From Amphiura filiformis (taxonomy: Eukaryota): a DNA stretch of 64,000 nt. The position numbers were made by a program, and so were the translations under genes. A model generated the notes under the pieces. That model searched no databases. It was given only the letters and a program-made list of their open reading frames with translations, and had not been told where the DNA came from. Numbering within the stretch: position 1 is the stretch's first letter; each line of letters starts with the position of its first letter. Shown piece by piece: positions 23,861 through 56,840 of this stretch. The stretch spans positions 57,946,946-58,010,945 of the forward strand of contig NC_092646.1 in assembly GCF_039555335.1 (NCBI RefSeq). Reading direction: 5' to 3'.

Positions 23861-24337
23861 TTAATTGGCGCCCAAAGACGGGAACTCGTCTTCGTTGTCG
23901 ACCATAGGAGCAGGGCCCTCGTCTCTTCTTCTGCCGCCGCCGCGCCGCCGCGACCACCACCACGCCCTCTGCCTCCTCCACGACCGCCTCCAAATCCACG
24001 CCCGCCGCCAAATCCACGCCCACTTCCAAATCCACCCCCCTCGCGACGATCACCACCGCGATCACCACCACGGTCACCACCGCGATCACGGTCACCGCCA
24101 CGATCGCGATCACCGCCACGATCGCGATCACCGCCACGACCACCCCCACGATCTCGGTCACGATCACCACGATCGCTACCGCCACCGGGTCCGCCACGAC
24201 CTCCTCGTCCACCGCCACGGCGTCCTCCACGACCACCTCTGCCGCCGCCGCCCACGATTCTGATCCGGGTAGAAGTTAATGTTAATTTCCAAAGTCTGTT
24301 TGGTGTGTCGGTCCTTGGCCTGGTGTTCAATAGCATG
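23861..24337 (-). CDS. SERBP1: SERBP1/HABP4 (PAI-RBP1)-like terminal coding exon: conserved flanks in one frame, RGG/GGDRDR/GFGGGRG domain in another (two compensating 1-bp frameshifts)
   Basis: Acceptor tctttttccctttaccaacag|CAT. Frame A reads HAIEHQAKDRHTKQTLEININFYPDQNRG (compare SERBP1 ...[20 protein letters not shown]). About 24252 the frame shifts into the RGG domain (GGRGGRGGRRGGGRGG...GGFGSGRGFGGGRGFGGGRGGGRGRGGGRGG). About 23942 it returns to frame A for RRRDEGPAPMVDNEDEFPSLGAN* (compare SERBP1 C-terminus APDVDDPEAFPALA*). Confidence 0.65.
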
Positions 24338-25031
24338 CTGTTGGTAAAGGGAAAAAGAACATTCAATGACTTCTACAACCAATACGGCAGGCGTGTAATT
24401 TTTTGAATGGAAACATCACAATTTTTGAAAGTTTTTAAAGAAAATGGATATGAATATGTTTAAAGGGCAGGTTTATAGCAAAAACAAGTTTATCTCTATT
24501 CAAAGAGAATAATTATTGGCCATGCGTTTTGAGTTGGGCCGGTAATGCGTTACATGTTTTCGCGAGATGAAAATTGCATGTTTTTGCGTTTAGATGTGAA
24601 TATCTTTCACAAATGATACCCAACATATATAAAAGTATACATTTTCTGGCTGCAAATACCAAATATTTTAGGGAAAAAATGTAAAATTTGACAAATTAAA
24701 AAAAAAAGTTAGCTTTACCCCACATATTTAAAAGTTCCATATTTGAATTCCTCTCAGTCAGAGCTTTAAATAGATATAACATCATAGGGTTCAATAAAAT
24801 TAAAATGATTTTGCGCCAGCTTCTTTCAAGGCATATTTTCCCATTGACTTCAATGTAACCCGAATGGAAAATAAAATATGCAAAATTGCTTCTCAAAGCA
24901 AATTAAATTACCTGGAATATGATTGTATGGTGTTATAGTATGCAGTTTAAAGTGAATTGTAAAAATGTGAAAAAAGAAATGGACCTCTTGCATCATATAA
25001 CCCCTGGGGGTCACTTTTATTAAATTTGCTC

Positions 25032-25066
25032 CTCCTGATCCTCCTCCTCCTGATCCTCCTCCACCC
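25032..25066. repeat. (CCT)n/(CCTCCTGAT) microsatellite
   Basis: CCTCCTGATCCTCCTCCTCCTGATCCTCCTCCACCCC. Confidence 0.7.
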
Positions 25067-26739
25067 CGCACATTATGCTAATTATATGCAAATTATTCAA
25101 ATGTTAATAACTTTTTACAACTTTTTTAAGGTTTACTGTATTGGTCTCATCACAAGCTTTAATTTGACACCAAATTTAACTACATAGGCTACATATTAAC
25201 TGAGAAAATTAACAAGATGAACCCTAAAATGCCGCGCGCATGTAACATCTCCACCTATTTACTGGCCCAACTCAAAACGCATGGCCTATTACATTACAAG
25301 TTGACACTTGTTGCAATTTTTGTGTGCGTATTTCTCCTGAAAAAGGAGAAATTGTGTGGGTAAAGTTCAGCCTCGACGTGTTCTTCCCCCTTTGAAGCGT
25401 CGTGTTCTCCCCCGCTTGACTGATGACGTAGGTAAATGAAGCGGGCACTTTATCGTGCTCTCATCATACAATCACAATCACTTTGACAAGTTTGACATTA
25501 GCAACAATGAGTTGTACTATCACTTACCATAACAATGCTGCATAAAAATATGCACGCTATTGTTCTCTTTCGGGCTATTGTTCTCTTTCGGGAACAAAGC
25601 CCACACAGTAATTGTTACTATGCGTTTGCTTTGTAATATTTCATCCAACTGAAACTATAGCATTGCAATATACAGGGAAATCAGATGCATGAGTTTATGG
25701 ACTAACACGGTTTATATGCTAGCGTCAGATGAAATTCTAAGCTCAAATTATGTATTTATTTTTTAGGCCTAATATTTCTCATGATATTGATATACATATG
25801 AATTGTAATATCACAATTGTCTAATATATAAAAAAGAAGCGGCTGGTTTTATCCATATGTTTAAAAACCATGAAATTTGTAATACTTAAATTTGGAATTT
25901 TTTGCTGTGAACAGCAACAGCATAGGTTCTGTCCATTGCGAGCGTTTATAGTCCCTTTTCTCAACGCGGGCACATCTCATTTCATGACGTCACCGATTTT
26001 CTAGGCCAAATCTGTCTCGTTCGAACGAACTCACCGCTTAAGTTAGTTTTTGAGAAATATTAATTTTAAACGTCTTATTTTCTCAAAAAAGGAGTCATTT
26101 TCATTGTCCTCATAATATTAGCTTGCCAATGATATGTTGTTTTCACTATAGACCTGCCCTTTAAGGACACTTCAGATAGACCTGGGGATGAACAACTCAT
26201 GCCAAACTCAAATGTTGTGCAAAATTGTTATACACAACTTTCTTGTAAAGAAAGCAATTGATCTGTTGCACAAAAGTTCATATTCTCAAAATAGCATTAC
26301 TATTTGTGACCTGCGACCACGTAATCCGCCACAAGTCGCCGCGACTTTACACTCATTTCGTTGAGTTGGTAGTTTCAAGATATTCGGTCTAAGATGATGT
26401 TATTTGTTTGCTGCGCACCTGTACAAGCCAGTAGTATTATCCTTAGTGAATGGCCCATTGTGTTCCCATTCACAAAGGATGTCAAACAAAGAACATCAAC
26501 TTAGACCGAATATCTTGAAACTACCAACTCAACGAAATGAGTAAAGTAAGGCGACTACATTTACGGCGGATTTTTGTGGTAGCAGGTCATACATGTTGTG
26601 GGAAATCCCCCTATTGGATTGGCACCAACAAGTTTTTAACTATTAATGGTGCCTTAAAATGAAATAAAGTTGCCACGGTTGGTGAATAGTGCTAATCAAA
26701 CTCTGTATCATAAATGCTCAACCTGGCTGTGGGTCATAC

Positions 26740-26980
26740 CTTTTCAGCATCAGCAGCCATTTGTTCTTTCTTCTTGAGCACTTTAGTTTCCGTCCATTGT
26801 GACTGGTCCTCGCCTTCACCAGCGCGCCGCGTCTTGAATTCTTTACGGTAACGTTCCTTGGCCATCATCTCTTTGTACTCGTCTAGGGTCATCTCCGGTG
26901 CTTCGTCTTCCTTCTCGACGCCTTCTTCGCCTTCACCGGGTTCTCCATCTTCCTTGATGACCTCGTCAGTTGCATTGTCT
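26740..26980 (-). CDS. SERBP1: SERBP1/HABP4-like internal exon (hyaluronan/mRNA-binding family core)
   Basis: DNATDEVIKEDGEPGEGEEGVEKEDEAPEMTLDEYKEMMAKERYRKEFKTRRAGEGEDQSQWTETKVLKKKEQMAADAEK matches SERBP1 [41 protein letters not shown]. Donor AAG|gtatga. Acceptor tgtcacaacag|A. Confidence 0.75.
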
Positions 26981-29394
26981 CTGTTGTGACATAACAGAGT
27001 AAGAATATTAGGATACAATACGATCAGGAACCTTGCCATACATGACCAGTTTCATAGGTCCCCATGCCTGGAAAAATGTGGAATCCTGGGGGGTTGACAA
27101 GTGGACCCCCCCCCCCCACCTCAGCCATGTAACTTGGCAACAAATTGCTTTGACAGAGATCAGGAATGATTGCACTTTCCTAAAAAAACAAAAATGCATG
27201 TGAAATAGGGCAAAAAGTACCAAAAACAGGCTGAAAGTAAATAAAGTTTTGAGCACTGAAGCCTGTAAGGTATAAACATAGGTAGACTGACATACTGAGT
27301 TGACAACTGAGAAACTTTTTTGTTAAGACTGCATTGTTGTCCAAATTAACCTATTATTTGAACACATATTTTCAGAACAGGAGATCGCGATCCTGTCCTG
27401 TCACCACGGCTCGGTAGGACACGAGCAGCAGTAGGATTTGCGCGACGGCACGTGACCAAAATCATATTCCAAGTCATACTTTGGGTTTGCATTGTTAGTC
27501 TGGTCATTTTGGTGTCAACAAACAAGAACAGTTCGAGTACTCTTTGTGTGTCAAGGTCACTCAATCCCACTATTGAGTTGTAGTAATCTCATCCCAAATG
27601 CCAGAATTCAGTATCGTCCACTGAACTGTGATAACTCAAAAATTTACCATTATCTAAAAGCTATGAGTTTGTGTACACAATGTATACAAAGGTCATTCTT
27701 TGAGTGTGTAAGCCTATTGGGGTTAATGAACTTGTCTTTTAGGACCCTAGTGTTGTAGTTTGTTACAATGTTCAGTAGTTCAGTACACTTCGGTTTATAA
27801 GTAGGACCTGCTAAAAATAACACCATTTGACCAGTACCAAGACCTATCCTATGCCATACATTTGTGAAAGTGGAAATTTTGGCATGCACATTTTATTTTG
27901 TGCAATTTATTGATTTTAAACCATTTCACTTATCTTTAAATTTGCAATTTTGAACTTTTGTACATGCACCTAGACACACAAAATAAATGGCCATAAGTTC
28001 ATAGGTTTTTTTCCTGCCTAATGATGAAGCCCCATATAATGTGTTATTGGTGCCAAAATTGGAAATTCTTGGTCTCCATTTTTACCTTTCTCTCATTCCA
28101 AAACCCTACAACCTTATAAAAAAGTGATACTACTAGTATGTAAGGAAGCGAAAACTTGCAACTTTTATAACAAGTAACACACTTTAAGTGCACAAAAATT
28201 AACACAAGAAAGTACCAAAGTTAAAGTTTCTAATTTGCCTACACAACATTGCGTCGCTGGGCAGGAAAAACCTGTCATTGGCCCCTGAACATGCTTAAAT
28301 CAAAACCTCCATGTAACTGGTTGGCAGTTTTGTTTTAAACATGTTCAGGTGCCACAAACACATAGGTTTTTCTTGCCCAATGACATTTTCACATTGCATC
28401 AAGACTTACTTGGATTCAGTTTTGTTGTCGGGCGTCTTGTTCGGTTTTCTCAGGATTCCATTGGGTAGCTTCTAACTCCTCGCTATTATTGGATGTGTCT
28501 AGGTCCCTGAAACAAATCATAACCAATATGTACAGTTTAGCATGTGTAGCTCAGTTGCATTACCCTTTTTTGGTCGAAGAAGCGATGCGCCTAGGCCTGG
28601 GGAGATTCCGCTCTTTGCAATCGCAATATCCACACACAATTTTTGGTTGAGTCAGAGTCAATCTGCACACCAAAGAAATTGAACTTTTCCGTTAATTTCC
28701 AAACTGGTCGATTCCGCAACATCAGCCTTTGCAGAAAGTAAATTTATGTATCAATTTGGACTATTGTCAGGAAAGAGCAGTCACACACAATGCCCAGGTT
28801 TGTGTTAGAATCAAAGTTGAATCTTGAAAAATCCAATGCTGTATTGGGTTTGAATCATGGGCTTCCACATGGCCTATACTTTGAACACAAATCTTAAATT
28901 TACACACCCAGTTTTTTGAATTTACACACCCAAACCTTCAAATCCTGCCTAAGACCCTCGATGCCCTGATGCCCTTAACACTTTCTGCGTGCAAGTTAAG
29001 AATGCAATAATGCAATCTCACACAAGCCCATGGCGGCCATCTTGGATACTTATGTGTAAGGTTAATTTCAAAACTGTTGATGAGAAATAATCATTTGAAA
29101 TGTTTATGAAGCAATTCTAGTATGTTTTTCCTTAACCCGTTACATCGAAAACGGCTGCTATCGTCCTACGAGCAACCCGCAATACTGCGCTGCAATGTGA
29201 TTTCACACAAAATCAAAATATTGCAACTTGGCGTGTTCATTTTAGTTTTATGCCAAATCGTAACCAGAACAAAATGAGTATATCACTTCAACAGAAACTC
29301 ATTCAAGAATTAGTAAAATAGAACGAAAGTAAGTCTGAAATAATCACTCACTAAAATCTAACTTAAAATGTTATTAGTTTAAAACACTCGTTGA

Positions 29395-29962
29395 AATGGG
29401 CTATTCTATTGGAAATCCATACACCCCAGTTAGCCCCGTAGAAGATGTGTGACATCCTTAATCTCACATACAAGGGGTGAATGTATCAAATGGCGTCACC
29501 AATTAAGGGGGTACTACACCCCTCGATAAATTAGTGTCTATTTTTTGCATTTTTCTCAAAAACTAATAACACAGTGGTAACAAAATTTATGTATATATTA
29601 TAGGGGCAAGGAATCCAGTTACTACACTGGAATTTCAGTGACTCAAGACAAGTGGTTTGTTATTTATGATAAGAAATAAGGTACCGCTAGGATGTACCTC
29701 GTTTCCTATCATATATACTGAACCGCTTGTCTTGAGTCACTGACATTTCAGTGTAGTAATTGGATTCCTTGCCCCAATAATATACAAAACTTTTGTTACC
29801 AGTGTGTTATTATTTTTTGAGAAAAATGCAAAATTAGTCACACATTTACCACAGGGTGTAGTACCCCCGTAAGGTAATCCCATTAGAAATCCACACTGTG
29901 TGAAAGGACAGGTCTCATATAGATGGTATATGGATCTCAACTGGAATGGCCCAATAAATGTA
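29395..29962. mobile_element. MITE family A copy split by a nested MITE family B insertion (B occupies 29503-29872)
   Basis: The A left half ends ...TCACCAATTAA|GGGGGTACTACACCCC. The A right half resumes after ...GGTGTAGTACCCCC|GTAAGGTAATCCCATTAGAAATCCACAC. Confidence 0.8.
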
Positions 29963-30696
29963 ATGGAGAGGAGACCGGACAGGTGATTGACCTCCATGTA
30001 AGTAACAAAGCACAAGCCGACCACCCACCTTTATCATTGCTACAGATCTTTCAAGTAAATTGTGGCCATTGTGGAATACTCGGTACAGCAAGAAGCTGCC
30101 GCACCAACAATACCGTGACTAAGTTCACTCTAGTCGGAAGGGTCGCTAGTCCGAAAACCAAATTAAGTTCTAGTTCGCTAATCTGAAGGTTCTCTAGTCC
30201 GAATATAGAATAATAGTTAGTGTTAGGATTAGGCTTTATGGTTAGGGTTAGCGAGCCTTATTCTATATTCAGACTAGAGAACCCTATTTATCTTTCGGAC
30301 TAGCGAACCCTCGGGACTAGAGAACCCGATATTCTGACTGACGAATGGTTAATTACGTGTTCGGACTGGCGAATCTTCGGACTAAGGAGCCTTCTGACTA
30401 GGAAACCTAGAGAGTTGTCGCCATCAATACACGGTTGTGCACCACACACTGTACAAAAAGGTGTACGCTTAGTGACGCTACATGTACGCCACAGGTACAC
30501 ATTCCACAATGGCCGCTTTTACTGGATATTTATTCTGTAGCCATGAACATTTTCATAGACCTTCCGCTTCCGCAGTCGGATGTTTGCCGTCGACGAACTT
30601 TCTCCAGGAAATACAACATTTTTCTTTCGCTTTCCCAAAATGAGTGAAAATAACAACTGCAACCACTTCAACCGTTTACGTTTTGTTAAAACTTAC

Positions 30697-30771
30697 TTGG
30701 CCTCGTCTTTAAGGTTGCCCCAGTTGTGTGATCCACCACCTTCTCGTTTGTCTTGTGCCTTGAATGAGCTG
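30697..30771 (-). CDS. SERBP1: SERBP1/HABP4-like internal exon (SSFKAQDKREGGGSHNWGNLKDEA)
   Basis: Matches SERBP1 [26 protein letters not shown]. Acceptor tactgttttcag|C, donor AA|gtaagt. Phases are compatible with both neighbours. Confidence 0.75.
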
Positions 30772-32343
30772 CTGAAAACAGTAAAAACACATTAGACGAC
30801 TGTAGCAGTCTGTCACTGTGGTTGCACTGATACGACTGTGGACGTCCCACGGAGGATGGGAAGCCACAGTACATACCAATTCGGTAAAAGTGTAGCTGAC
30901 TTGACCGACGCAAATTGTGAGGTACAACTTGCAAGTTTGGGTATGTAAAAATTGGACTGCTGGGAGGGAGTCTGTCAAACAAACCAGGGTCAGAATTTCG
31001 GCGAGAATCTGAGAATCGATTCTGGCAAAGATGGTCGCAAACAGATTTGCATTCATGAATCAAAGTTGATTCTCGCAAACTTTTGTAGTTTACACAGAAG
31101 TTGATTTGCAAGAATCAAAATGATTCCCGCAAAATTATTCTGCAAGAATCAAGATTGACAGATTCCCGCACTGTGAAACAAAATTCTGACCCTGCAAATC
31201 TTACCAATCTATTAAATTAAAATCATTGTGAATTGCAAGAGTCCTTTTTTTTTTTTAACTGCGAGATGTGAGCACATGCTGGGAACTTTTTTTAAATTTT
31301 GTAGAGATTGGCACTTTTAATCGCATACATACATTAAACTAATATCAGTCTAACAAATAGCAGCATTAATAACATTAATTTTAATACCAAAAATATCAAA
31401 TGTGCCTGGAACAATAATTTGTATACAATGTATGCATTTCCATCATGTGGACATGTGCTACACATCATTTTCTAAAACATCCGAGAGCCCATGTTTATGA
31501 TCATTTATATCGGCATCACTTAATGTATCATTTCCAAATGCTGTGCTCCTAATGACCTAAATAGAAACCCATATTCAGCCTAGTCAGCCAGCCAGGTCAT
31601 CAGAAGGCAGACCTCAAGTTTGTCTATGCCATATGTAGGAGCTATATGATTGACAAGAAAGGTCATACAGTGAATGATTACTTGATTAGATGATTATATG
31701 GGTGGCTCTCTGCATCATTCATTTGAGATGCAGATGCATCACTTATATTGCTCTTCCAGTTCCAGATTGTCTTTGCAGGACTTCTACAGCATGAAACAAG
31801 ATTTCAAAAATGAATCTAGAACTGGAGGACAAGTATACTGTGTTCAACATTATAAAATAATCTTAGGCAGGCCAAAGTCAAAAAAAGGGTTTTCTCTCTA
31901 ACCCACGCCCAACTATGAAAGCCATCCTATGCGCTAGGCCTTTTTTAGTACAGACTTTTTAAATTATAAAATAAAATTCCTGTGTACACATAGCACTTGA
32001 CTTGTTTTTCTTTTTTAAGAGAAAAAACAGCAGTTTTTTTGCAAAATGTTTGAAACCTTTTGTTTTTGACCTCGGGAGTAAACTAGTTACCAATCTCCCA
32101 ATGCAATGGAGAGTTATTACAGTACATGCACAGGACACTAGGGTAATGCATGCCTACTTGTACATGAACTTGAGCCTGTAATTTTTAATTGCCCTGAGGG
32201 CACATGCCTACCTCTAGTATTACCAGATGCTTGTTATTCAGCACATGTACACAATCACAAATAAATCCCAATATTTTTTTCTCATCAGTTACATTTCAAG
32301 AGGGTGGGGAGTGATCAGGAAAGCGCAATTAAAATCCACTTGC

Positions 32344-32854
32344 CTCTTATCGCTTCCACTGTGTCGGTCAAACTCTCTCTTGCCACGGAAATCTCGTCCT
32401 CCTCGGATCCCGCCTTGTCCCCTACCACGCCCTCTGCCTCTTCTGGCGCCACGCTCTCCACCAAATTCGCCGCCACTACCAAATCCGCCGCCGCCGCTAC
32501 CAAATGTACCGCCGCTACCAAATCCGCCGCCGCTGCCAAATCCGCCACCGCTACCAAATCCACCACTTCTTGGCGGCCTATCTCCTTGATCTCGGAATGA
32601 CGGCCTGTCACCGCCCCTATCGCTCCTAAATTCGTTTGACGGTGCCTGGTTTTCTCTGTTCTCATGGAAGAAACCACCGTCTTGGTTTCGCCTCTCACCG
32701 CGGTTGTCCCTACCGCCGTCACGGTCACGAGGACCGTCTCGGTCTCGGTTTTGTCTACCTTCTGATCGGCGGTTGTCTGAGCGGCCACCTCTGTTGCCAC
32801 CACGGCCACCTCTGTTGCCCTGCCTGTTGCCCTCGGGCCTATCTGATTTGATTT
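32344..32854 (-). CDS. SERBP1: SERBP1/HABP4-like exon 2: RGG/GFGSGG-rich region ending ...RDFRGKREFDRHSGSDK
   Basis: Acceptor ttttttattttcag|AA. The sequence ...GGFGSGGGFGSGG...RGRGRGRGQGGIRGGRDFRGKREFDRHSGSDK matches the SERBP1 RGKREFDRHSGSD motif. The donor is the non-canonical-but-valid AG|GCAAGT. Confidence 0.75.
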
Positions 32855-33829
32855 CTGAAAATAAAAAAATATGTAACTTGTCATTCGCAAATCGTAACTC
32901 TTGTTAGCATAGGCCTCAATCTAGGAAAATACATGTTAACTAACCCCAACACCGGACACCGGTAAGCTGGTTCCCTAAGAAATTTGAAACATCACCCTTT
33001 TTTAAAGGCTGTTTAACCTACCCCTAGTTAAAGGCATTCCTTTTTGTTGTTGAAAAGCCTTTGTCAAAAACTGGGTACAAGTTTGAAATGGGATGAAACA
33101 TTCCTTGGCATTTTTTGGGGGGAGGGGGCCAAATCCTCCAACCTTCACATCCAGACAAACCTAAAAGTTGTAGCCCTTAGCTCTGAAACAGGATAATTAA
33201 TCAATAATCAGTACTATTTTGGATGTATTTTAAGGGGGGTAACCCAATGTTTGATTTAGCACCTGCACCCCGGGACCTGCACATGCAGATGACTTTGATT
33301 CTGTGCAGGTAACTCTTCAAATGTACCTGCACAAGCCTGGAAAAAATGTGGGAAGCTTCTAGGACAGCGTTCAAGCTTTGACTTACGTTTGGTGGCCAAA
33401 TGTGTAAACAAAATATTTAGGGGTGAAAAGAAACAAAATTCTTTAATGTTATGTTTCCAAGGGTAAAATATCATCTAGTTTCAGATTTTGGCACTTAAAA
33501 CTCCTTATTTTTTTTATAGATTTCGAGAAACAATCTTTTGTTTTGTCCGATTTTGGCTGAAAATGGCCATTTAGGGGTGACAAAAATTTTGACTTGCAGA
33601 TTTCCTGTGAGTGTATGAAACTATCAAATAGTGCCTAATTTTCTATGCTAAATTGCTAATTGTTTAACCATCAAGCTACTAATGGAAGGAGATTCCACAG
33701 AAAAATCCTAATCCACTCAATAGGGTTAAGCCGATTACGCTATTCAACGCGAGTCATCACTTGAATGGATTTAATCAGTACATTCCCTCAAACACAGCCT
33801 TTGATGTTTATGATCGTTATGCAACTGGG

Positions 33830-34830
33830 CCAGAGCCAAAATTCCCGTTTGTGGCGGGACGGAATTTTGATAGACCTTTTAAATTGTAGCTCTGTGACTG
33901 TTTATTTTATGGATTCTTCATGTTCTTAATATAAACAAATAAGTTACAGACTACATTTACACGCAAGAAAAATAGTCCAAAGAATCAACATGTTGCCACG
34001 GTAACACAAATTCATTGATGTGGCGGGACGGAATGATAAACTTCATGTATTTGTGAACACAGTACATTTGTTGAATTTTTATCAAAAGTACTGGGATAAA
34101 ACATTTGTTTCTAACATTGGTATTAACTTCAACTATCCTTCTTTTGTTATGGAAGGAATTATAAAATTCACCCCCCTCTTTATAGTACGCTCATTAATTT
34201 TTAAAAATCATGTCATTGTGGCGGGACGGAATGTGGCGGGACGGAATTTTGTCCACCATGTCAAAATCAAGAAAAAAGCAATTAATTCACTTTTAAACTG
34301 ACAAAATTGTCTTTTCTTTCACTTCCAATGAAAAATTATTGCAAAATATAAACTGAGAAAGAAAATTTTCATCACTTCCTGAACTTAAAAAAATTATCTC
34401 AAAATGTGGCAGGGCCATGTTTTACACCACAGACCCTGAAAGTAGCCTTATTGCTGGCATCCTACCACAAAAGGCCTGAAAAAGAAGAAGTTAAAATGGC
34501 TCTGAGTCTAGCAAAGTTGATGAATTCAATTTTGGGTACTCAGGAATGTTTATTACCATAATAGTTGATATTTTGGAAAGTTTTGACTAAATTTTTTTTT
34601 TCCGTCCTTCCGAACGTAAAAAATCACCTCAAAATGTGGCGGACGGAATTTTACACATATTTTAATTTATTTCTTTATTTTTGCAAAGTCCACTGACATT
34701 TTTTTTAGTGCTGAAATTGTCTATACAGAAGACCTTTATAATACCATAAACAAAAATATCCTATCTTTTTTAAATATGTAGTAACATCAAATTTAACAAT
34801 TCCGTCCCGCCACACCGAGAGGGCGCTACA
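33830..34830. repeat. Cluster of short dispersed repeats sharing the GTGGCGGGACGGAAT(TTT) motif
   Basis: Copies at 33845, 34019, 34219 and 34233 (tandem), 34627; inverted at 34797; degenerate at 34405. Several are embedded in AAAATTCCCG...CGGGACGGAATTTT palindromes. Confidence 0.6.
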
Positions 34831-36134
34831 TGTGTATTTAATTACTTGCAGTCCGAAATTGACGGGCAAATTTTACTTTTTTTTTGCCAATTCATAATCT
34901 TTGGTTAGTAGTCTATTAAACCAGAGGAGAAATTCACTCCTGTGACAATTTCTAAATTTTAGGTTGAGTGATGACCATTTTTGGCTCTGGCCCAACTATA
35001 TCGATCATCTATTTTAAAATGTAATTTAAACCGACCCCCCTAGGTGACCCGTACCGGAAATGGATGGTATTAGTGCCCTTTTGCATCGGTCACATGATTT
35101 TCGATTGCGTCATCTCATTGTGTTTCCGAGTTCAAGTTGATTTACTAGTGAAAACCTGATCGAATTCCCTCTTTTCCTTCCAAAGTTATGGTGAATTTAT
35201 GTATTTTTTCTGATCGTGATTAGTAATACTGGCGGGTGTCTGCGTGACTTTTAAACCAGTGGAAATGATTTGGAAAGGTTTTCCAAGACTGGCAATTGTT
35301 TCTACGATCCGCCAAGCTTGGCCATAAGAAATATTGGTGTTATAAAATTACCGGAAGTAAATTGTTTTCCTTTGTTTATGGTCACGCCACAATGCTTTGT
35401 GGGTAAAATGGTGTCATTCTGCTTAGAAGTCGCGATAACGGTGGTTCATAACCGGCCATGCTCAATAGATAAGAAGCTTAGCAAATCAATAGTGCGTCAT
35501 TCATACCTGATTGCTCAGTATCGACTCATAACCATCATAGTACACAGGGAACTGGGTTCGTGGATTCTCCTTCTATGATATCTCGATGGTTTAACAAGGG
35601 TACAATTGTGATATTAAAAGCATTGAATGGGATCCATTTGAAAAGGCCATATCTCCACAATGGTATGAGCTATATAGGGATGCTTTAAGTGTTTTTTGCT
35701 CAGTATTTCAATTTTCAATAGCTAAATGGTGATATCAAACCAGTAAGCTAGATCTACAGAAAAAGAAAATAACTTGTAAAATGCTACCCCCACCCTAAGG
35801 ATTTTGAGGGTGTGAAAAAAGTCAAGGATTTTGCACACACAAAATAAGTCCTTCAAAACTGGGAGGTTTGAGGCTAAACAAAAGTCATGTTGCCCTTACC
35901 AATGCTTCCCTCTAGAGCAACATGTGTTTTGTTTAGCCCTGAGTATCCCCATTTTGAAGGACTTATTTTTTTGCACCAATTTTCACTCAAATTTGAGGAC
36001 TTAGGGCAGAAATATGCCTGTACAGTGCTATGGGGAAATTTTTCAAGTTGATGGTTATGCATTTTTTATGTCAGATTCAATTTCTACACAAAATTTCACC
36101 CTAGAAAATGTTCCTTTATTTAAGTAGGATATCT

Positions 36135-36492
36135 TTCACTAAAAGGGGGTACTACACCCCTGCCCAATTTTGTGCCTATTTTTGCATTTTGCTCAAAAAG
36201 TATAGCACATTGGTGACAAGTAACATGTATATTATAGGGGCAAGTACTACAACTATTGCACTGAAAATTTTATTTCAGCACAGACAACAGTTGTGGAGTT
36301 ACAGTCAAAAATGAGGGAAAACCAATATTTGATCAGTAAATCAATAACTACTTGCCTTGAGTTGCTGAATTTTCAGTGCAGTAGTTGTAGTCCTTGCCCC
36401 TATAATATACATATCTTACTTGTCCCCAATGTGCTATAATGTTTGAGAAACATGCAAAAATAGGCACAAAATTGGCCAGGGTGTAGTAACTA
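36135..36492. mobile_element. MITE family B (~365-bp hairpin, termini GGGGGTACTACACCCCTG...CAGGGGTGTAGTACCCCC), copy
   Basis: The whole element is a near-perfect long inverted repeat around GCACAGACAACAGTTGTGGAGTTACAGTC. It matches 29503-29872, 37596-37964, 38657-39022 and 54273-54647. Confidence 0.85.
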
Positions 36493-37439
36493 TAAGTTCC
36501 ACCATTCTTCTGGCCACCAAATGCAAGTCAAAGCTTGAACGCTGTCCTAGGTCCTTAAACAAAGAAATACATAAGAATTTGGATGGAAATTTGTCTTTTA
36601 TAAAAGGGAAATTTTGATCATCTTGCAGGGAAATTTTCATTTTTCCAGCCCTGTGCACAAGTGCATGTAGAATTTTAGTCGTAAATTACGCAGTTGGAAT
36701 CAGAAACATACAATGTGCCTCTAAATCTAAGAAGTACCGTAACCACTCGGGTATAAGCCCACCTTCGGCTATAAGCCCACCCCCTATTTTTCAAAACATT
36801 CTGGGAACAAGGGTGCACTGGAGTATAAGCCCAGTTGTAATTTTGGCTAAGTTCTTAAATCAAATCAACACTTTTAAAAGCATAAAAAAAAGATATCAGT
36901 TGATCATTAACATTCCATACTCATAATTTTTTTTTTTAAATTGACACAGATGATAGAAAATATTGGTACATCAGGCATACGCAAATGGGGATGATTGTTC
37001 TTATTTTTAAATTGAAGTACTAGCCCCTCCCCGGTTATAAGCCCACCCCCATTTTTGAAGTGAAATCTATATCTATGGGGTGGGCTTATACCCAAGTGTC
37101 TGATAAATTTATATCCTTACTTAAATGACACCAATTTTACTTTTCATCTGTAAAAAATATGATTAATTTCACGGCACAAACTTTTTATTTTATATGGTTA
37201 AATTGTGTGCAAGGTAGATTTCTACATTACATGTACTTGCACAAATGCAAGTTTTTCTGGTAAATCAAACACTGACAGGGGGGTCTGTAAATCAATATTT
37301 TCATCAACATTCCTCAACAATCATTATTTTATGTCCGATTCTGTTAAGTTGGTGTTGGTTTGCATGTAATGTCTAGAATTCCATTTTTGAAAGTTGCATA
37401 AAAATTGGAGTTGTTGTTTTCTTAAATGGCTGTTTTATG

Positions 37440-37500
37440 TCCAAAAAGGGTCCGGGGTTCGAATCCCAGGGGTACCAAGTGACTTCTTCCTTCACCTTCT
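37440..37500 (+). ncRNA. tRNA-derived SINE fragment (T-arm GGGGTTCGAATCCCAGGGGTACCA)
   Basis: GGTCCGGGGTTCGAATCCCAGGGGTACCAAG is similar to 38130-38160. It is followed by TTAGGG-like GGTAGGGTAGGGTTAGGGTTAA at 37548-37572. Confidence 0.4.
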
Positions 37501-37595
37501 CTCCTTTTTCGTTTCTTCTTTCCCTTCCGATAGCAAAAAAAAAAACACAGGTAGGGTAGGGTTAGGGTTAATTAACATGTTTTTCCTAGATTTAG

Positions 37596-37964
37596 GCCTC
37601 CTTTAAGGGGGTACTACACCCCTACCCAATTTTGTGCCTATTTTTGCATTTTTCTCAAAAATTATAGAGCATTGATGACAAATAAGATATGTATATTATA
37701 GGGGCAATGACTACAACTGCTGCACTGGCAATTTTATTTCAGCACAGACAACAGTTGTGGAGTTACAGTCAAAAATGAGGGAAAACCAACATTTGATCAA
37801 TAAATCAATAACTACTTGCCTTGAGGTGCTGAATTTTCAGTGCAGTAGTTGTAGTCCTTGCCCCTATAATATACATATCTTAATTGTCACCAATGCGCTA
37901 TAATTTTTGAGAAAAATGCAAAAATAGGCACAAAATTGGCCAGGGATGTAGTACCCCCTTAACC
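37596..37964. mobile_element. MITE family B copy, flanked TTAA/TTAA
   Basis: CCTTTAA|GGGGGTACTACACCCCTACCC ... GGGATGTAGTACCCCC|TTAACC. Confidence 0.85.
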
Positions 37965-38085
37965 TAACCCAACTAAGTCTCACTATTTAAGCTCACTATT
38001 AAAACCACTCTGCATGCATGCATTCCATGTGACTTGATGACGCAATCAGCCAAAGTCATATACCCAGGGGAATTGCTGCCCGGGG

Positions 38086-38650
38086 CAGCCTAACCTCAGT
38101 AGGTTGGTGATCGTGTGCGTGGCATGTGAGGGGTCCCGGGTTCGAATCCCGGGTACCAAGCAGGGCCCGCGGAAGGTTTTTGAAGGTGAGGGGGCGGAAA
38201 TTGAACCCTAAAATGTAATAAATGGCCTCGGAGCGGTCATCGCGTTTCGCTTGCGCGACGCAGGGGGGTGTCTGTGGCCCCTTCAGAAGTAAGAAACTTT
38301 TGCAAAATGAAGACCTAATTGAAGCGATTTGGTGGCCCATTTTGGCACTATTTTTATAACTTGTGTAAAATTTTAGTCTTCAGGAAAAAGCAAAGCCGAC
38401 AATTTTCCATGCCGGGGCTCCATGAAGCCTTTCGTGGACAATTTTCCCGTTATATTGTAGGCCTATAAATTGCGTTAAACATAAATTTGGCAAATGTCAA
38501 AAGCAGAAGCGAAAATGGGCACTGTCCACTATGCAGAGCCAAGGGGTGTATGAGGGGGGGTGTTCCCCCCTCAGAATTGGAACAATTTTGCAAAATGAAG
38601 GTCCAATTGAAGCTATTTGGTGCATCATTTTTACACTTATTTTTTTTTAA
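38086..38650 (+). mobile_element. tRNA-derived SINE with a duplicated ~70-bp tail unit
   Basis: tRNA-like head ...GTGGCATGTGAGGGGTCCCGGGTTCGAATCCCGGGTACCAAGCAGG. Tail repeats TTTGCAAAATGAAGACCTAATTGAAGCGATTTGGTGGCCCATTTTGGCACTATTTTTA and TTTGCAAAATGAAGGTCCAATTGAAGCTATTTGGTGCATCATTTTTACACTTATTTTT. Confidence 0.55.
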
Positions 38651-38656
38651 ATCATT

Positions 38657-39022
38657 GCTTTAAGGGGGTACTACACCCCTGGCCAAATTTGTGCCTATTT
38701 TTGCATTTTCTCACAAATTATAGCACATTGGTGACAGGTAAGATATGTATATTATAGGGGCAAAGACTACAACTACTGCACTAAACATTCAGCAACTCAA
38801 GGCATGTAGTTATTGATTTATTGATCAAATATTGGTTTTCCCTCATTTTTGACTGTAACTCCACAACTGTTATCTGTGCTGAAATAAAATTTCCAGTGCA
38901 GTAGTTGTAGTCCTTGCCCCTATAATAACGATACCTTACTTGTCACCAATGCGCTATAATTTTTGAGAAAAATGCAAAAATAGGCACAAAATTGGGCAGG
39001 GGTGTAGTACCCCCTTAAGAAG
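38657..39022. mobile_element. MITE family B copy, flanked TTAA/TTAA
   Basis: GCTTTAA|GGGGGTACTACACCCCTGGCC ... GGGGTGTAGTACCCCC|TTAAGAAGG. Confidence 0.85.
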
Positions 39023-39127
39023 GAATAATACCCTGATTTTCATCAGTACCCCTCTTCTTTTTTTTCTTGCAAATTTATAAAGTACATACATACGTACATA
39101 ATATGTTCATCACTGTGTCATGAACTT

Positions 39128-39328
39128 ATAAAATATATCTACATACATTTTTGACTGTAACTCCACAACCATGACAACTGTTGTCTGTGCTGAAATAAAA
39201 TTTCCAGTGCAGTAGTTGTAGTCCTTGCCCCTATAATATGCATATCTTATTTGTCACCAATGCGCTATAATTTTTGATAAAGCAAAAACAGGCACAAAAT
39301 TGGGCAGGGGTGTAGTACCCCCTTAATT
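39128..39328. mobile_element. MITE family B, 3' half only
   Basis: Matches the right arm ...CAGTGCAGTAGTTGTAGTCCTTGCCCCTATAATATGCATATC...GGGCAGGGGTGTAGTACCCCCTTAATTAAAGG. Confidence 0.7.
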
Positions 39329-39819
39329 AAAGGAAGGTGACATAATATATTTCATGTATTTGGAAAATGGAATTCTTTAAAACATGTATCAAACATACAT
39401 GACATAATAATATCAAATATGATTAATGTGATGTCGTCCGAACAGAGGTCAGAGTGTCATGACCTTTCATTTCATTTCATTGAGTCGGCAGCTTAAACTG
39501 TAACCAGTCGTACTCTCGCCAACTTACCCTGAAACCTTGGATTGAGTGCAGATATCAGAACCGGGGATGGTCCCCCTTCTCTTTTCGAATACCTCTGACA
39601 CTTTAACGTGCACATGGATGAATCCTCCTGAACACAGGACCAACGGCTTTACGTGACTTCCAAATCACGGACGAAGCACATGTACACTACATCTGCACGT
39701 GCTAAGCAGTGTATGGGGGCGAGAGAAAATTCTTCAATTAAATTCTGAAATTAAATTACTGAACTTTATTGAAGGATTCCCGACCATATAGGAACTTTTT
39801 GGGAGGGAAGAGAATTTTC

Positions 39820-39915
39820 ACCTAACATGCCTAAAGCAAGCCCAGGCCAAGGCTCGAACCCTCGTCGATCGTATCTCCCGGCCGGCAGCGCAACACCTTA
39901 ACCATGTTAACCACT
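39820..39915 (-). pseudogene. tRNA-Ser-like pseudogene / SINE head with an internal GGTTAA duplication
   Basis: The reverse complement reads GCGAGATGGCCGAGTGGTTAACATGGTTAAGGTGTTGCGCTGCCGGCCGGGAGATACGATCGACGAGGGTTCGAGCCTTGGCCTGGGCTTGC. The D-loop GCCGAGTGGTTAAGG and a T-arm-like GGGTTCGAGCC are recognisable, but the acceptor stem does not close. Confidence 0.4.
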
Positions 39916-40451
39916 CGGCCATCTCGCCCTCAATCAAGGACCTTGATGATTGATCAGCTGTTCCATCCTCATGCCATGCATGAAGTATCATGGACATCAT
40001 GATGATCATCATCAACTGATCAAGATCATAATGCACATGGGGGTGGAAATGTGGATGTCATGACTCATGAAAATATTTTTAGTATCCATGTATGCATGCA
40101 TGAACTTGCTGCATCAGTGCAGGACAATCAAAAACGTGTTACGTGCCCCCCGTAGAGTGCATGACATGTTTAATACCTTCTTTACATGAATAAAGTAGTA
40201 TATTAGCATATTCTTTATGAATTACAAGTACATCTGTGACTGACCATGTTAAAAGGAGTTTTGTACACAATACACATTCACCACGTGTAGTCAATCACGC
40301 GTGAATTTAAATATGGCAACCTTCAATTCTGCCAAAACATGGTCGCATTTCAAGAGATGTTTTGCATGATTCCGAGATGAGTAAGAGAGTTTTAAATAGC
40401 TGTATCGAACCAATAGATATAAGAGATAATAAATATGAGCATAATATTCAC

Positions 40452-40650
40452 CTTCTTTCCTAGGTTTAGGTTCTGGCTCGGGTTCTTTCTTCACAACTTC
40501 CTGCTGTTTCTTTGACTTCTTGCTTCCCTTCTGTGGTTTTTTCTCCTTCGCTTGAGCCTCTATTGAAGACAAAATTTCATCGGGATCTCCCACACTATCC
40601 CATTCCACAAGATACCTATTGTGGGTCTGTATACCGTAGCTTGATTCCAT
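40452..40650 (-). CDS. SERBP1: SERBP1/HABP4-like first coding exon (start ATG 40648-40650)
   Basis: MESSYGIQTHNRYLVEWDSVGDPDEILSSIEAQAKEKKPQKGSKKSKKQQEVVKKEPEPEPKPRKE matches the HABP4/SERBP1 N-terminus ([27 protein letters not shown]...). Donor G|gtgaat, phase 1, compatible with exon 2. This donor is the least certain splice site in the model. Confidence 0.6.
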
Positions 40651-53118: not shown

Positions 53119-53605
53119 ATGGATCCACTTCCGGTTAAAATTAAAGCGCCAAATTCATCGGTTTTAATTTGGCGCGGAAGTCATTGTACACAAACCAGCT
53201 CGATCAGTGAAGACACCATGGCTACCGTTCTCACAAATTCTCCGTCTAAAATCATTCCAAATGTCATCATCAGGTCTCCAGTCAGGCCTTTACGGTTTGA
53301 TATGACTCCGATGAGCCCCATGAGTCCAGGTTTGGGCGATTTCTACCCATGGAAATGGCATGAAAGTGCAAGAAACGTCGAATTTAGCCCGGCAAGCACT
53401 TGCAGTTCGCCGAGAACGCCGGGTTCGGAATGCACCATCTCCAGCCCACGTACAAGGGGACGACCGAGGGCTGAAACCATTCCAGATCTCCAGCGAGAAG
53501 GAACTTCATTGCCTGTTGAATCTCCAGTTGGCATCAAATGCAGAATTTGTTCACGAGTTTTTCCACGAGAGAAATCTTTACAAGCACACATGAGAACTCA
53601 CACAG
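53119..53605 (+). CDS. ZNF367: ZNF367-like C2H2 zinc-finger protein, coding exon 1 (includes RGRPRAE AT-hook-like motif and finger 1 CRICSRVFPREKSLQAHMRTH)
   Basis: MDPLPV...SPGLGDFYPWKWHESARNVEFSP...RTRGRPRAETIPDLQREG...IKCRICSRVFPREKSLQAHMRTHTG. Donor ACAG|gtaagc, phase 1. Motifs match vertebrate ZNF367 as I recall it (YPWRWGENAHNV, RGRPRADTVRDLINEG, CNICNRVFPREKSLQAHKRTHTG). Confidence 0.75.
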
Positions 53606-54272
53606 GTAAGCTTAATCTTTAAACATGTTAAAGTAGTCCTTTTAAATTTTCATCCAGGCCGATCACATTCACGTACATGTATGATGATCATCATCATGCA
53701 TACATGATCATGATGATAATTATGTAGTTATATAAATAATACAACATTTATGTTAATACATTCAGTGTTTACAGTTTCTCATCGACGCATGGACGTTTAT
53801 ATTGTATTTGTTGAACTTGTACACGTCTAATATTTCTATTAATTTTTATTCTAAAAAAGATTATTGTACGGTACTTTATAAAAAAAATAATGTAAAATTG
53901 ATCAAGATCATCACATCATGATTCACAATAGAATACATTCAATATATTTTGATTCATTCATTTCTTTAATCTCGGTCTCATCTGTTCTGACATTTTTGAG
54001 ATATTTTGTCGTTTTTTAATTGTGATCTTTGACTTTTAGTTTAATATTGTTGGCAATCAACTTTTCTTTAGTCGAGTTAGAAAACAGTTTCACTTTCATT
54101 TTTGAAACCACGCGTGATATTCTTGTCATTACAATGGCAATGCCATGGTTGATTTTGGCAATTTGTTTTGTTTTGTGAATTTTGTGTGCATAAAGCGGCC
54201 TATACAATGTCAATATGACTCAACATTGTGTCTTAAAATAATTCTAAAAAATTAAAAATTATTATTTTATAT

Positions 54273-54647
54273 TTAGGGGTATTACACCTTGCCAAATTTT
54301 TTGCCTATTTTTGCATTTTTCTCAAAAATTATAGCGTATTGGTGACAAGTAAGATATGTATATATTATAGGGGCAAGGACTACAACTACTGCACTGGAAA
54401 TTTTATTTCAGCTCAGACAACAGTTGTGGAGTTACAGTCAAAAATGAGGGAAAACCAATATTTGATCAATAAATCAATAACTACTTGATGTGAGTTGCTG
54501 AATTTTCAGTGCAGTAGTTGTAGTCCTTGCCCCTATCAGAGTGCCCCTATAATATACATACTGCTTGGCACCAATGCGCTATAATTTTTGAGAAAAATGC
54601 AAAAATAGGCACAAAATTGGCCAGGGGTGTAGTACCCCCTTAAAGTT
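54273..54647. mobile_element. MITE family B copy inside ZNF367-like intron 1
   Basis: TTTAGGGGTATTACACCTTGCCAAATTTTTTGCC...GGCCAGGGGTGTAGTACCCCCTTAAAG. Confidence 0.8.
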
Positions 54648-54795
54648 GCTTGTCAAAAAATTGCAAGAACTACTAGTATGGTACTAGTCTTTCGTATCAT
54701 ATTTTCTCCACAAAATTGATCTTCTTGAAATTTGAAGTAGTCTTTTTTGTAATAGATATAAAGAGCAGAATACACATCCTAAATCAAATATTATC

Positions 54796-55040
54796 AGGCC
54801 TCGAAATAAGCCAGAATTTCTCAGGGCCATTTGGGCCCTCGATCATAAATGTTTGAGGGCCCTCACAAACTTTTGTGGGCCCAAATTTGGGCCATTGGTT
54901 TTAACCTATGAACCCCACAAAAAAGTGAGAAAAATTGTAAATTTTTTGCGGGCCATTTGGGCCCACTGGATGTATCTTTTGCGGGCCCTCACTAATTTTC
55001 GGGGGCCGAGGGCCCTTGTGCCCTCCTTATTTCGAGCCCT
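54796..55040. mobile_element. MITE with TIR GGCCTCGAAATAAG and internal GGGCCATTTGGGCCC palindromic subrepeats (in ZNF367-like intron 1)
   Basis: CAGGCCTCGAAATAAGCC ... CCTTATTTCGAGCCCTG. GGGCC(N)GGGCCC motifs at 54826, 54855, 54872, 54950, 54975, 55000. Confidence 0.6.
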
Positions 55041-56679: not shown

Positions 56680-56840
56680 TGAGCAATACATTCTACAAAT
56701 GTATGGGGCAAACTGACCCAGATTTTTGTATAAATATTTTGTTGCAAAAATGTATATTTTCTTTTGTTTTTTAACAATAACAATTGGGGTTTTTGCATTT
56801 GAAGGTTCTGAACATTGAAATAAGTAAGACTATAGAAAAC

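What the first reader, a model, noticed from the sequence alone, without database searches (positions are those of the whole stretch)
23861..40650. Complete SERBP1/HABP4 (hyaluronan/mRNA-binding, PAI-RBP1) family gene model on the minus strand, five phase-compatible exons over 16.8 kb
Exon 1 (40452-40650) encodes MESSYGIQTHNRYLVEWDSVGDPDEIL..., the HABP4 N-terminus. Exon 2 (32344-32854) encodes the RGG/GFGSGG region ending at the REFDRHSGSD motif. Exon 3 (30697-30771) encodes GGGSHNWGNLKDE. Exon 4 (26740-26980) encodes EMTLDEYKEMMAKERYRKEF...QWTETKVLKKK. Exon 5 encodes ININF...PSLGAN*. All junction phases are 1, 2, 2, 0, as required. The ORF track only shows these as disconnected fragments in different frames. 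Intron 1 (7.6 kb) has captured four family-B MITEs and two tRNA-SINEs.
Basis: partly seen in the sequence, partly recalled or inferred. Interest (0 to 1): 0.5.

Follow-up and report, generated by a model that had tools for sequence, protein, structure and literature searches.

The report
Echinoderm SERBP1/HABP4 gene with frame breaks

Summary
The gene and the family assignment are correct. All five reported exons exist at the stated coordinates with phases 1, 2, 2, 0. The spliced product hits Pfam PF04774, and its best relatives are sea-urchin SERBP1-like proteins. The gene sits head-to-head with ZNF367, as in Lytechinus variegatus, so it is the positional orthologue.

The model is neither complete nor intact:
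- **Missing exon.** A sixth coding exon (28506-28410) lies in "intron 3". It matches Lytechinus exon 4 and human "DLDQSNVTEE". As assembled it is 97 nt long and carries an in-frame TGA.
- **Exon 5 is not one ORF.** EININF and the C-terminal tail are in one frame, and the RGG box between them is in the +1 frame. Frame 0 stops at 24178-24176.
- **Intron 2 is GC-AG.**
- **tRNA-SINEs.** Only two B-box-like motifs support them.

The four MITEs are confirmed.

Exon 4 has dN/dS 0.13 against a relative. All splice sites and the tail after the frame breaks are intact. The three single-base breaks are therefore either consensus errors (about 55%) or very recent lesions (about 40%). The window alone cannot decide between these. 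The finding is ordinary, with an annotation caveat.

The parts
40452..40650 (-). Coding exon 1 (ATG at 40650; MESSYGIQTHNRYLVEWDSVGDPDEIL...PRKE; ends in phase 1; donor AAG|GTGAAT)
   Evidence: tblastn to P0001, P0002 and P0004. It is collinear with Pfam PF16174 but scores only 14 bits.
32855..40451 (-). Intron 1 (7597 nt), loaded with transposon debris
36141..36498 (.). MITE copy 1 (palindromic, ~360 nt; the right end is degenerate)
   Evidence: D1-D4, I10, I18. Sub-threshold hairpin hit to Rfam MIR2630.
37603..37962 (.). MITE copy 2 (inverted ends TTAAGGGGGTACTACACCCC... / ...GGGATGTAGTACCCCCTTAA)
   Evidence: I3, I13. Sub-threshold hit to Rfam MIR821.
38660..39018 (.). MITE copy 3, opposite orientation to copy 2 in its asymmetric core (I1, 93% over 313 nt, ungapped)
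   Evidence: I1, I9, I12
39174..39326 (.). MITE copy 4, right half only
   Evidence: D2, D4, I14, I16
38075..38160 (+). tRNA-like fragment with a perfect T-arm/B box (GGTTCGAATCC at 38139-38149). A second, shorter fragment lies at 37440-37480.
   Evidence: Not detected as tRNA by ARAGORN or Rfam.
32344..32854 (-). Coding exon 2 (RGG and GFGSGG repeats, ending ...KREFDRHSGSDK; phase 1 to 2). Its donor is AAGAG|GCAAGT, so intron 2 is GC-AG.
   Evidence: The same junction in Lytechinus has AG|GTATGT.
30697..30771 (-). Coding exon 3 (SSSFKAQDKREGGGSHNWGNLKDEAK; phase 2 to 2)
28410..28506 (-). Acceptor TTTGTTTCAG|G, donor CCAA|GTAAGT. It encodes DLDTSNNSEELEATQWNPEKTEQ... As assembled it is 97 nt with an in-frame TGA at 28418-28416. 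Removing one base, for example one A of the AAAA run at 28423-28420, gives 96 nt and phase 2 to 2.
   Evidence: It corresponds to Lytechinus exon 4. Alignment score is 53 against shuffles of 28.6 +/- 4.3, with 0 of 500 shuffles reaching it. PF04774 rises from 68.5 to 81.7 bits when it is included. It aligns to human SERBP1 'DLDQSNVTEE'.
26740..26980 (-). Coding exon 4 (DNATDE...EMTLDEYKEMMAKERYRKEF...QWTETKVLKKKEQMAADAEK; phase 2 to 0)
   Evidence: dN/dS is 0.126 against a relative's exon, L006.
24254..24337 (-). Exon 5, first part, frame 0 (HAIEHQAKDRHTKQTLEININFYPDQNR)
24251..24253 (-). Frame break 1: a GGG where GG would keep the frame (CGT G GGC GGC GGC GGC AGA). Reading on in frame 0 reaches TAG at 24178-24176.
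   Evidence: The 14-mer GCGGCGGCGGCAGA at 24251-24238 is repeated at break 2.
23944..24250 (-). Exon 5, C-terminal RGG/RGD box, open only in frame +1 (GGGGRGGRGGRRGGGRGG...GRGRGGGRGG)
23942..23943 (-). Frame break 2: GGC GGC G-C GGC GGC GGC AGA. One G is missing, and the reading returns to frame 0.
23861..23941 (-). Exon 5, conserved C-terminal tail in frame 0 (GGGRRRDEGPAPMVDNEDEFPSLGAN, then TAA)
   Evidence: 72% identical to the sea-urchin tails
53218..58158 (+). Divergent neighbour, a ZNF367 orthologue. Four coding exons at about 53218-53600, 56558-56680, 57191-57340 and 57940-58158, all intact. This is the synteny anchor.
   Evidence: The same head-to-head pair occurs in Lytechinus variegatus.

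Best explanation
The locus is the positional orthologue, in an unidentified echinoderm, of the SERBP1/HABP4 (PAI-RBP1, Vig/Vig2, Stm1) family. These are intrinsically disordered, RGG-rich proteins. They lie in the mRNA channel of the 40S subunit and hold eEF2 on idle 80S ribosomes, which preserves dormant ribosomes.

The gene has six coding exons on the minus strand: 40650-40452, 32854-32344, 30771-30697, 28506-28410, 26980-26740 and 24337-23861. The intron phases are 1, 2, 2, 2, 0, the same as in Lytechinus. Intron 2 is GC-AG.

The intended product is about 532 aa: an N-terminal motif, RGG box 1, the HABP4_PAI-RBP1 domain, RGG box 2 and an acidic FPSL tail. The assembled sequence departs from this by one base at three places:
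- an extra G at 24253-24251;
- a missing G at 23943-23942;
- one extra base in the last ~35 nt of exon 3b.

All three lie in short triplet repeats. I take these to be consensus errors of the assembly, for example from mixing haplotypes that differ in repeat length, in an otherwise functional gene.

Shown here: the exon blocks, phases, splice sites, family domain, orthologous exon structure, synteny, and purifying selection on exon 4. Inferred: that the three breaks are artefacts, and the ribosome-binding function, which rests on family membership.
For: - **Family.** PF04774 scores E = 1.1e-18, rising to 8.7e-23 with exon 3b. The best database relatives are sea-urchin SERBP1-like proteins. SERBP1, Habp4, Vig2 and Stm1-type chains in ribosome structures are matched.
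- **Exons.** tblastn recovers every exon.
- **Gene structure.** The Lytechinus gene has six exons at the same junctions and phases, and its last exon is a single ORF.
- **Synteny.** The head-to-head ZNF367 neighbour is conserved.
- **Selection.** Exon 4 has dN/dS 0.126 against a relative with dS of about 1. The unusual QW-x-x-T-x-VLKK motif is shared with that relative.
- **No decay.** All ten splice sites are intact, including those of exon 3b. The tail downstream of the breaks is still 72% identical to sea urchins and ends at the orthologous stop. There are no nonsense or other lesions elsewhere in about 1 kb of CDS.
- **Repeat context.** Both exon 5 breaks sit next to the same (GGC)nAGA 14-mer.
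- **Function of the family.** bioRxiv 10.1101/2021.11.03.467131 (read) and the abstract of PMC11063288.
Against: - Single-base indel noise is low elsewhere in the window. 162 of 170 satellite units are exactly 45 nt, with at most 1-2 single-base indels in 7.8 kb.
- ZNF367 (about 0.9 kb of CDS) and SERBP1 exons 1-4 (1.0 kb) have no frameshift.
- MITE copies align without gaps over 313 nt.
- A uniform error rate therefore cannot produce three errors in 574 nt. Exon 2 contains similar (GGC)n runs that are unaffected.
- No reads, transcripts or close-relative sequence of exon 5 or exon 3b could be obtained.
Confidence: 0.5

Rival explanations
1. The three single-base changes are real. This copy, or this haplotype, of the SERBP1 orthologue was disabled or truncated very recently. 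Without exon 3b the mRNA would encode a 395-aa protein. That protein keeps the HABP4 domain but replaces RGG box 2 and the FPSL tail with ...YPDQNRGRRRQRWSWRTPWRWTRRSWRTRWR*. With exon 3b the mRNA carries a premature TGA (291 aa), which makes the exon a poison exon. A functional copy might exist elsewhere, as Lytechinus has two copies of the SERBP1-ZNF367 pair.
For: - The as-assembled translations are given.
- Indel noise is low elsewhere in the window.
- Three lesions are concentrated in one gene.
- The SERBP1-ZNF367 pair is duplicated in L. variegatus.
- habp4 knockout zebrafish are viable, so loss may be tolerated.
Against: - There is no other sign of decay. Exon 4 has dN/dS 0.126. There are no nonsense codons in about 1.6 kb. 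All splice sites are kept.
- The tail downstream of the first frameshift is conserved with the stop in place.
- The neighbouring ZNF367 is intact.
- Three neutral indels at ordinary rates would imply roughly 5% substitutions and several stop codons (my estimate).
Confidence: 0.4
2. One reading: a complete, intact five-exon gene whose exon 5 encodes ININF...PSLGAN in one frame.
For: The exon coordinates and phases are correct, and skipping exon 3b keeps the frame.
Against: - Translating the five exons gives 8 in-frame stops in exon 5.
- No credible internal intron rescues it. Every GT/GC...AG pair that restores the frame has a G-rich acceptor without a pyrimidine tract and deletes the conserved RGG box.
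- An orthologous sixth exon with strong splice sites exists.
Confidence: 0.02
3. Both exon 5 frame changes are real and are decoded. A +1 shift and then a -1 shift, by ribosomal frameshifting or transcript slippage/editing, occur at the two identical GCGGCGGCGGCAGA motifs, so a full-length protein is still made.
For: - The two shifts are exactly compensating.
- Each lies beside the same 14-mer.
- The sequence after each shift is conserved.
Against: - The same motif would have to drive shifts in opposite directions.
- (GGC)nAGA simply encodes GGGR, so the shared 14-mer is expected.
- The Lytechinus last exon is a single ORF.
- I know of no precedent in this family.
- A pair of +/-1 errors or lesions compensates by chance half the time.
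Confidence: 0.02

Closest known systems
Sea-urchin SERBP1-like / 'plasminogen activator inhibitor 1 RNA-binding protein-like' genes (Lytechinus variegatus P0002, Diadema antillarum P0001, S. purpuratus P0003)
   Same: - 54-59% identity over aligned columns.
- The same six coding exons, junction positions and phases.
- The same head-to-head ZNF367 neighbour.
- The same domain order and C-terminal VDNE(E/D)EFPSL tail.
   Different: - The window gene has a unique (GFGSGG)n insertion in exon 2 and a longer DRDRGG-rich second RGG box.
- It has a divergent N-terminal motif (YGIQTHNRY against Y-x-IGVSNRF) and QWTETKVLKK instead of QWKxTYVLKK.
- The intron 2 donor is GC instead of GT.
- The introns are much larger, and the distance to ZNF367 is 12.5 kb against about 1.1 kb.
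- It carries three single-base frame breaks.
Vertebrate SERBP1 (PAI-RBP1) and HABP4 (Ki-1/57, IHABP4): ribosome-bound chains such as 4v6x_Ah, 7ls1_A, 6mte_w, 7oya_i2
   Same: The PF04774 domain with KREFDRHSGSD, GSHNWG, DLDxSN, EMTLDE(W/Y)K, the LEINF-type motif, flanking RGG boxes and the (D/E)FP(A/S)L C-terminus. phmmer gives E = 1e-30 to human SERBP1 isoform 3.
   Different: - The invertebrate gene predates the SERBP1/HABP4 duplication.
- PF16174 (IHABP4_N) is not reached (14 bits against a cutoff of 39.1).
- There is no ESPKYIQKQISYNYS-type alternative segment.
- Ribosome binding was not tested here.
Drosophila Vig/Vig2 and fungal Stm1-type HABP4_PAI-RBP1 proteins (4v6w_Ah, 7pzy_i, 7olc_B)
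   Same: The same Pfam domain and the same role as occupants of the mRNA channel of idle ribosomes (abstract of PMC11063288; 10.1101/2021.11.03.467131).
   Different: They are much more distant in sequence (E = 4e-13 to 9e-6), and gene structure and synteny are not shared.
TTAA-flanked palindromic MITEs (piggyBac/PIF-like target preference; the family name is unknown)
   Same: About 360 nt, with long terminal inverted repeats beginning TTAAGGGGG. There are several copies in both orientations, inside an intron.
   Different: No autonomous partner was identified. The Rfam hits to plant MIR821 and MIR2630 are below threshold and only reflect the long hairpin.

Membership tests
SERBP1/HABP4 (HABP4_PAI-RBP1) family | Pfam PF04774 HABP4_PAI-RBP1 domain above the gathering score | tested here: met
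   68.5 bits (five-exon model) and 81.7 bits (six-exon model), against a cutoff of 21.8.
SERBP1/HABP4 (HABP4_PAI-RBP1) family | N-terminal IHABP4_N region (PF16174), present in most metazoan members | tested here: inconclusive
   14 bits, E = 0.076, against a cutoff of 39.1. The match is collinear over 1-125 of the protein and 1-135 of 142 in the profile. The N-terminus aligns from residue 1 with the orthologues.
SERBP1/HABP4 (HABP4_PAI-RBP1) family | RGG/RG boxes on both sides of the domain, and the conserved acidic (D/E)FP(S/A)L C-terminus | tested here: met
   Both are present. The C-terminal RGG box is in the +1 frame relative to its flanks.
SERBP1/HABP4 (HABP4_PAI-RBP1) family | An uninterrupted coding sequence for the full-length protein | tested here: not met
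   As assembled there is a frame-0 TAG at 24178-24176 in exon 5 and a TGA at 28418-28416 in exon 3b. This may be an assembly artefact.
SERBP1/HABP4 (HABP4_PAI-RBP1) family | Orthology to the echinoderm gene: shared intron positions and phases, and shared neighbours | tested here: met
   The junctions and phases are identical to L. variegatus, and the divergent ZNF367 neighbour is shared.
SERBP1/HABP4 (HABP4_PAI-RBP1) family | Binding in the 40S mRNA channel with eEF2 on idle ribosomes | not testable with these tools
   Known for SERBP1, Habp4, Vig2 and Stm1. Inferred here from homology only.
GC-AG intron | A GC donor in an otherwise strong consensus, at a junction fixed by homology | tested here: met
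   The donor is AAGAG|GCAAGT. The nearby GT (32339-32338) gives the wrong phase. The orthologous Lytechinus junction, after GSDK+AG, has GTATGT. No transcript confirmation is available.
MITE | A short non-coding element with terminal inverted repeats, target-site duplication and multiple copies | tested here: met
   Three full copies and one half copy in intron 1, with TTAA at both ends of the inverted repeats and 87-96% arm complementarity. A further end lies at 54606-54645.
tRNA-derived SINE | A tRNA-related head with A and B boxes or a tRNA-like fold, and multiple copies | tested here: inconclusive
   B box/T-arm GGTTCGAATCC at 37456-37466 and 38139-38149, with only about 32 nt shared between the two. 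ARAGORN finds none. There is no Rfam tRNA match even at E <= 10 in a 1-kb search.

The most novel reading that the evidence does not exclude
The two opposite single-base frame changes that bracket the C-terminal RGG box are genuine. Each lies beside the identical 14-mer GCGGCGGCGGCAGA. The cell still makes full-length protein by recoding (ribosomal +1/-1 frameshifting, or transcript slippage) at these motifs. The TGA-bearing exon 3b then acts as a regulated poison exon.
Probability: 0.02. Interest if true: 0.75.

Novelty: new member of a known kind. Interest (0 to 1): 0.15.

Why it matters
In biological terms this is a routine orthologue of a well-studied ribosome-dormancy factor, in an echinoderm that has no annotated close relative.

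The practical value is for annotation:
- The correct model has six coding exons and a GC-AG intron.
- Any automated pipeline will truncate the gene, split it or call it a pseudogene because of three single-base frame breaks.

If the breaks are real, this animal would carry a SERBP1 copy that lacks its second RGG box and its conserved tail. That would be mildly interesting for egg ribosome storage in a group where maternal ribosome dormancy is classic biology. If they are errors, they flag (GGC)n-rich coding exons as weak spots of the assembly.

Tried and rejected
1. **An internal intron in exon 5 to bridge the frames.** I enumerated all GT/GC...AG pairs. 118 restore an ORF, but all have G-rich acceptors without a pyrimidine tract and delete the conserved RGG box. 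Rejected.
2. **Alternative donors.** The GT 4 nt downstream of the exon 2 GC donor gives phase 0 and no match to SSSFK. For exon 3b, the only donor upstream of the TGA (GGA|GTTAGA, a 30-nt exon) is weak and cuts off sequence that is still homologous. Rejected.
3. **A third protein search for relatives' exon 3b and exon 5.** The query was the exon 3b and exon 5 flanks in both frames. It returned no hit even at E <= 10, so there is no comparative evidence on the frame breaks.
4. **Handing in the repaired model.** Exon 4 alone was used instead. It yielded one relative's exon on an 830-nt contig, too short to reach exon 3b or exon 5.
5. **tRNA detection for the claimed SINEs.** ARAGORN found none. 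Rfam found nothing at gathering thresholds, nor any tRNA match in permissive E-value searches of intron 1 (E <= 1) and of the 1-kb stretch around the B boxes (E <= 10).
6. **Identifying the species from related-contig accessions in the literature.** No paper was found.
7. **Gene conversion from exon 2 as a single cause of both exon 5 shifts.** There is only weak (about 70-79%) repeat-level similarity. No support.

Full report
**What is there**

- The ATG is at 40650 in a good Kozak context (GACATCATGG), with no upstream in-frame ATG.
- Exon 1 ends at 40452 before GTGAAT.
- Exon 2 is 32854-32344, after TTTTCAG.
- Exon 3 is 30771-30697.
- Exon 4 is 26980-26740.
- The last block starts at 24337 after CCAACAG and ends with a TAA at 23863-23861.
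- The lengths are 199, 511, 75, 241 and 477 nt, which give phases 1, 2, 2, 0 as claimed.

**Family and orthology**

The spliced product, with frames repaired, hits Pfam PF04774 (HABP4_PAI-RBP1) at E = 1.1e-18.

Its best relatives among 5.8 billion proteins are sea-urchin SERBP1-like proteins: Diadema antillarum, Lytechinus variegatus and Strongylocentrotus purpuratus. A hemichordate and many vertebrate SERBP1 proteins follow. tblastn of these proteins against the window recovers all five blocks and nothing elsewhere.

Against the Protein Data Bank, the protein matches the SERBP1, Habp4, Vig2 and Stm1-type chains seen in idle-ribosome structures. The best match is E = 1e-30 to human SERBP1 isoform 3.

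The plus-strand neighbour at 53218-58158 is a four-exon, intact ZNF367 orthologue. In L. variegatus the SERBP1-like and ZNF367-like genes are also head-to-head. The window gene is therefore the positional orthologue and not a dispersed copy.

ZNF367 identities are 63-65% to echinoids and asteroids and 57-59% to crinoids. Together with the absence of any near-identical protein in the database, this places the window in an echinoderm without an annotated close relative.

*1. Exon 5 is not an open frame.*
- EININF and the tail GPAPMVDNEDEFPSLGAN* are in one frame.
- The RGG/RGD box between them is open only in the +1 frame.
- Frame 0 has eight stops there, the first a TAG at 24178-24176. tblastn shows the same split.
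- Removing one G from the GGG at 24253-24251 and adding one G at 23943 (GGC GGC G-C GGC) restores a single ORF. That ORF is collinear with the orthologues.
- In Lytechinus the last exon is one continuous ORF.
- No credible internal intron rescues the frame.

*2. The model lacks an exon.*
- At 28506-28410 there is a strong acceptor (TTTGTTTCAG|G) and a near-perfect donor (CCAA|GTAAGT).
- They enclose DLDTSNNSEELEATQWNPEKTEQ.
- This matches Lytechinus exon 4, DLNTSNASEEGTTQEWNQPADGEQ. The alignment score is 53 against 28.6 +/- 4.3 for shuffled peptides, and 0 of 500 shuffles reach it.
- It also aligns to human DLDQSNVTEE.
- Including it raises the PF04774 score from 68.5 to 81.7 bits.
- As assembled it is 97 nt with an in-frame TGA at 28418-28416. 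One base fewer gives 96 nt and phase 2 to 2.

*3. The exon 2 donor is GC.*
- The donor is AAGAG|GCAAGT. Lytechinus has GT at the same junction.
- The nearby GT gives the wrong phase. Intron 2 is therefore a GC-AG intron.

**Side claims**

Intron 1 is 7597 nt. It contains three full copies and one half copy of a ~360-nt palindromic MITE with TTAA-flanked inverted ends, so that claim is confirmed.

The two 'tRNA-SINEs' rest only on B-box/T-arm-like GGTTCGAATCC motifs at 37456-37466 and 38139-38149, which share about 32 nt. ARAGORN finds no tRNA, and Rfam finds no tRNA match even in a permissive 1-kb search.

**Are the three frame breaks real?**

Evidence against decay:
- A relative's exon 4 (78% amino-acid identity, 80% nucleotide identity, from an 830-nt metagenome contig) gives dN/dS = 0.126 at dS of about 0.96.
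- That relative shares the unusual QW-x-x-T-x-VLKK motif, so the divergence is lineage-specific.
- All ten splice sites are intact.
- The tail after the breaks is 72% identical to sea urchins, with the stop in place.
- There are no nonsense codons elsewhere.

Evidence against a simple error explanation:
- Single-base indel noise is low elsewhere. 162 of 170 satellite units are exactly 45 nt.
- ZNF367 and SERBP1 exons 1-4 (about 1.9 kb of CDS) are clean.
- MITE copies align without gaps.

All three breaks lie in short triplet repeats: (GGC)n in exon 5, and CAACAAAAC as one candidate position for the exon 3b break. The two exon 5 breaks flank the identical 14-mer GCGGCGGCGGCAGA. This pattern fits consensus errors at repeat-length polymorphisms in a heterozygous genome. 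It is also where real indels arise.

No reads, transcripts or relatives' exon 5 could be obtained. My estimates are about 55% artefact, about 40% real and very recent lesion (a truncated 395-aa product, or a pseudogenising copy), and about 2% recoding.

**Mechanism and comparison**

By homology, the encoded protein is a disordered, RGG-rich factor. Such factors occupy the 40S mRNA channel, hold eEF2 at the A site of non-translating 80S ribosomes, and preserve stored ribosomes. This has been reported for Stm1 and SERBP1 (abstract of PMC11063288). (10.1101/2021.11.03.467131) reports it for egg-specific Habp4 and cites earlier work linking Vig2 to non-translating ribosomes. None of this was tested here.

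Compared with the sea-urchin orthologues, the gene differs in these ways:
- a GFGSGG repeat insertion;
- a longer DRDRGG-rich second RGG box;
- a divergent N-terminal motif;
- a GC donor;
- much longer, transposon-filled introns.

**Verdict**

This is an ordinary member of a known family, correctly spotted. The gene model needs three corrections: a sixth exon, a GC-AG intron, and three single-base frame breaks. Interest is low, and the only open question is whether the frame breaks are real.

Noticed in passing
window 4-7811: A 45-nt satellite (unit TAATTGTGACCATCCACATCGAAATCGTATTGAGTCATTAACCTC) of about 173 copies, 96-98% matching the consensus (TRF). It gives a constant GC skew of -0.30 and artefactual ORFs of up to 1020 aa.
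   Followed up: partly
window 11135-11235: An interstitial telomere-like array, (CTAACC)n, which is (TTAGGG)n on the other strand. About 17 copies, 78% matches.
   Followed up: no
window 53218-58158 (+): An intact four-exon ZNF367 orthologue, 12.5 kb from the SERBP1 start and divergent from it. An upstream in-frame ATG at 53119 extends the ORF beyond the orthologous start.
   Followed up: yes
L003, L004, L005 (Lytechinus variegatus CM031025.1, about 7.8 Mb and about 11.7 Mb): The SERBP1-like/ZNF367-like head-to-head pair occurs twice on the same chromosome and encodes identical 419-aa SERBP1-like proteins. This is either a segmental duplication or an assembly duplication.
   Followed up: no
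window 47805-48281: A 118-nt tandem repeat, 4 copies, 81% matches, in the SERBP1-ZNF367 intergenic region.
   Followed up: no
window 32911-32950 and 37561-37600: A shared ~40-nt element end (GGGTTAGGGTTAATTAACATGT...TTCCTAGATT.AGGCC) lies directly upstream of the exon 2 acceptor and beside MITE copy 2. It is probably the terminus of another transposon family.
   Followed up: no
L006 about 16-70 (ENA ERZ23486772 contig): The relative's contig carries a partial second copy of the start of exon 4 (GDNATYEAVQEDGALVE) about 130 nt upstream of the real exon, in another frame.
   Followed up: no
window 23735-23760 (minus strand, about 100 nt after the stop): An ATTAAA followed by a genomic A18 run just downstream of the SERBP1 stop codon. 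It could be the poly(A) signal or a retroelement tail.
   Followed up: no
window 36149-36488 and 37579-37980: The MITE hairpins give sub-threshold Rfam hits to the plant miRNA families MIR2630 and MIR821 (61.6 and 107 bits, against gathering scores of 144 and 249). This reflects the long hairpin shape and is not evidence of homology.
   Followed up: partly
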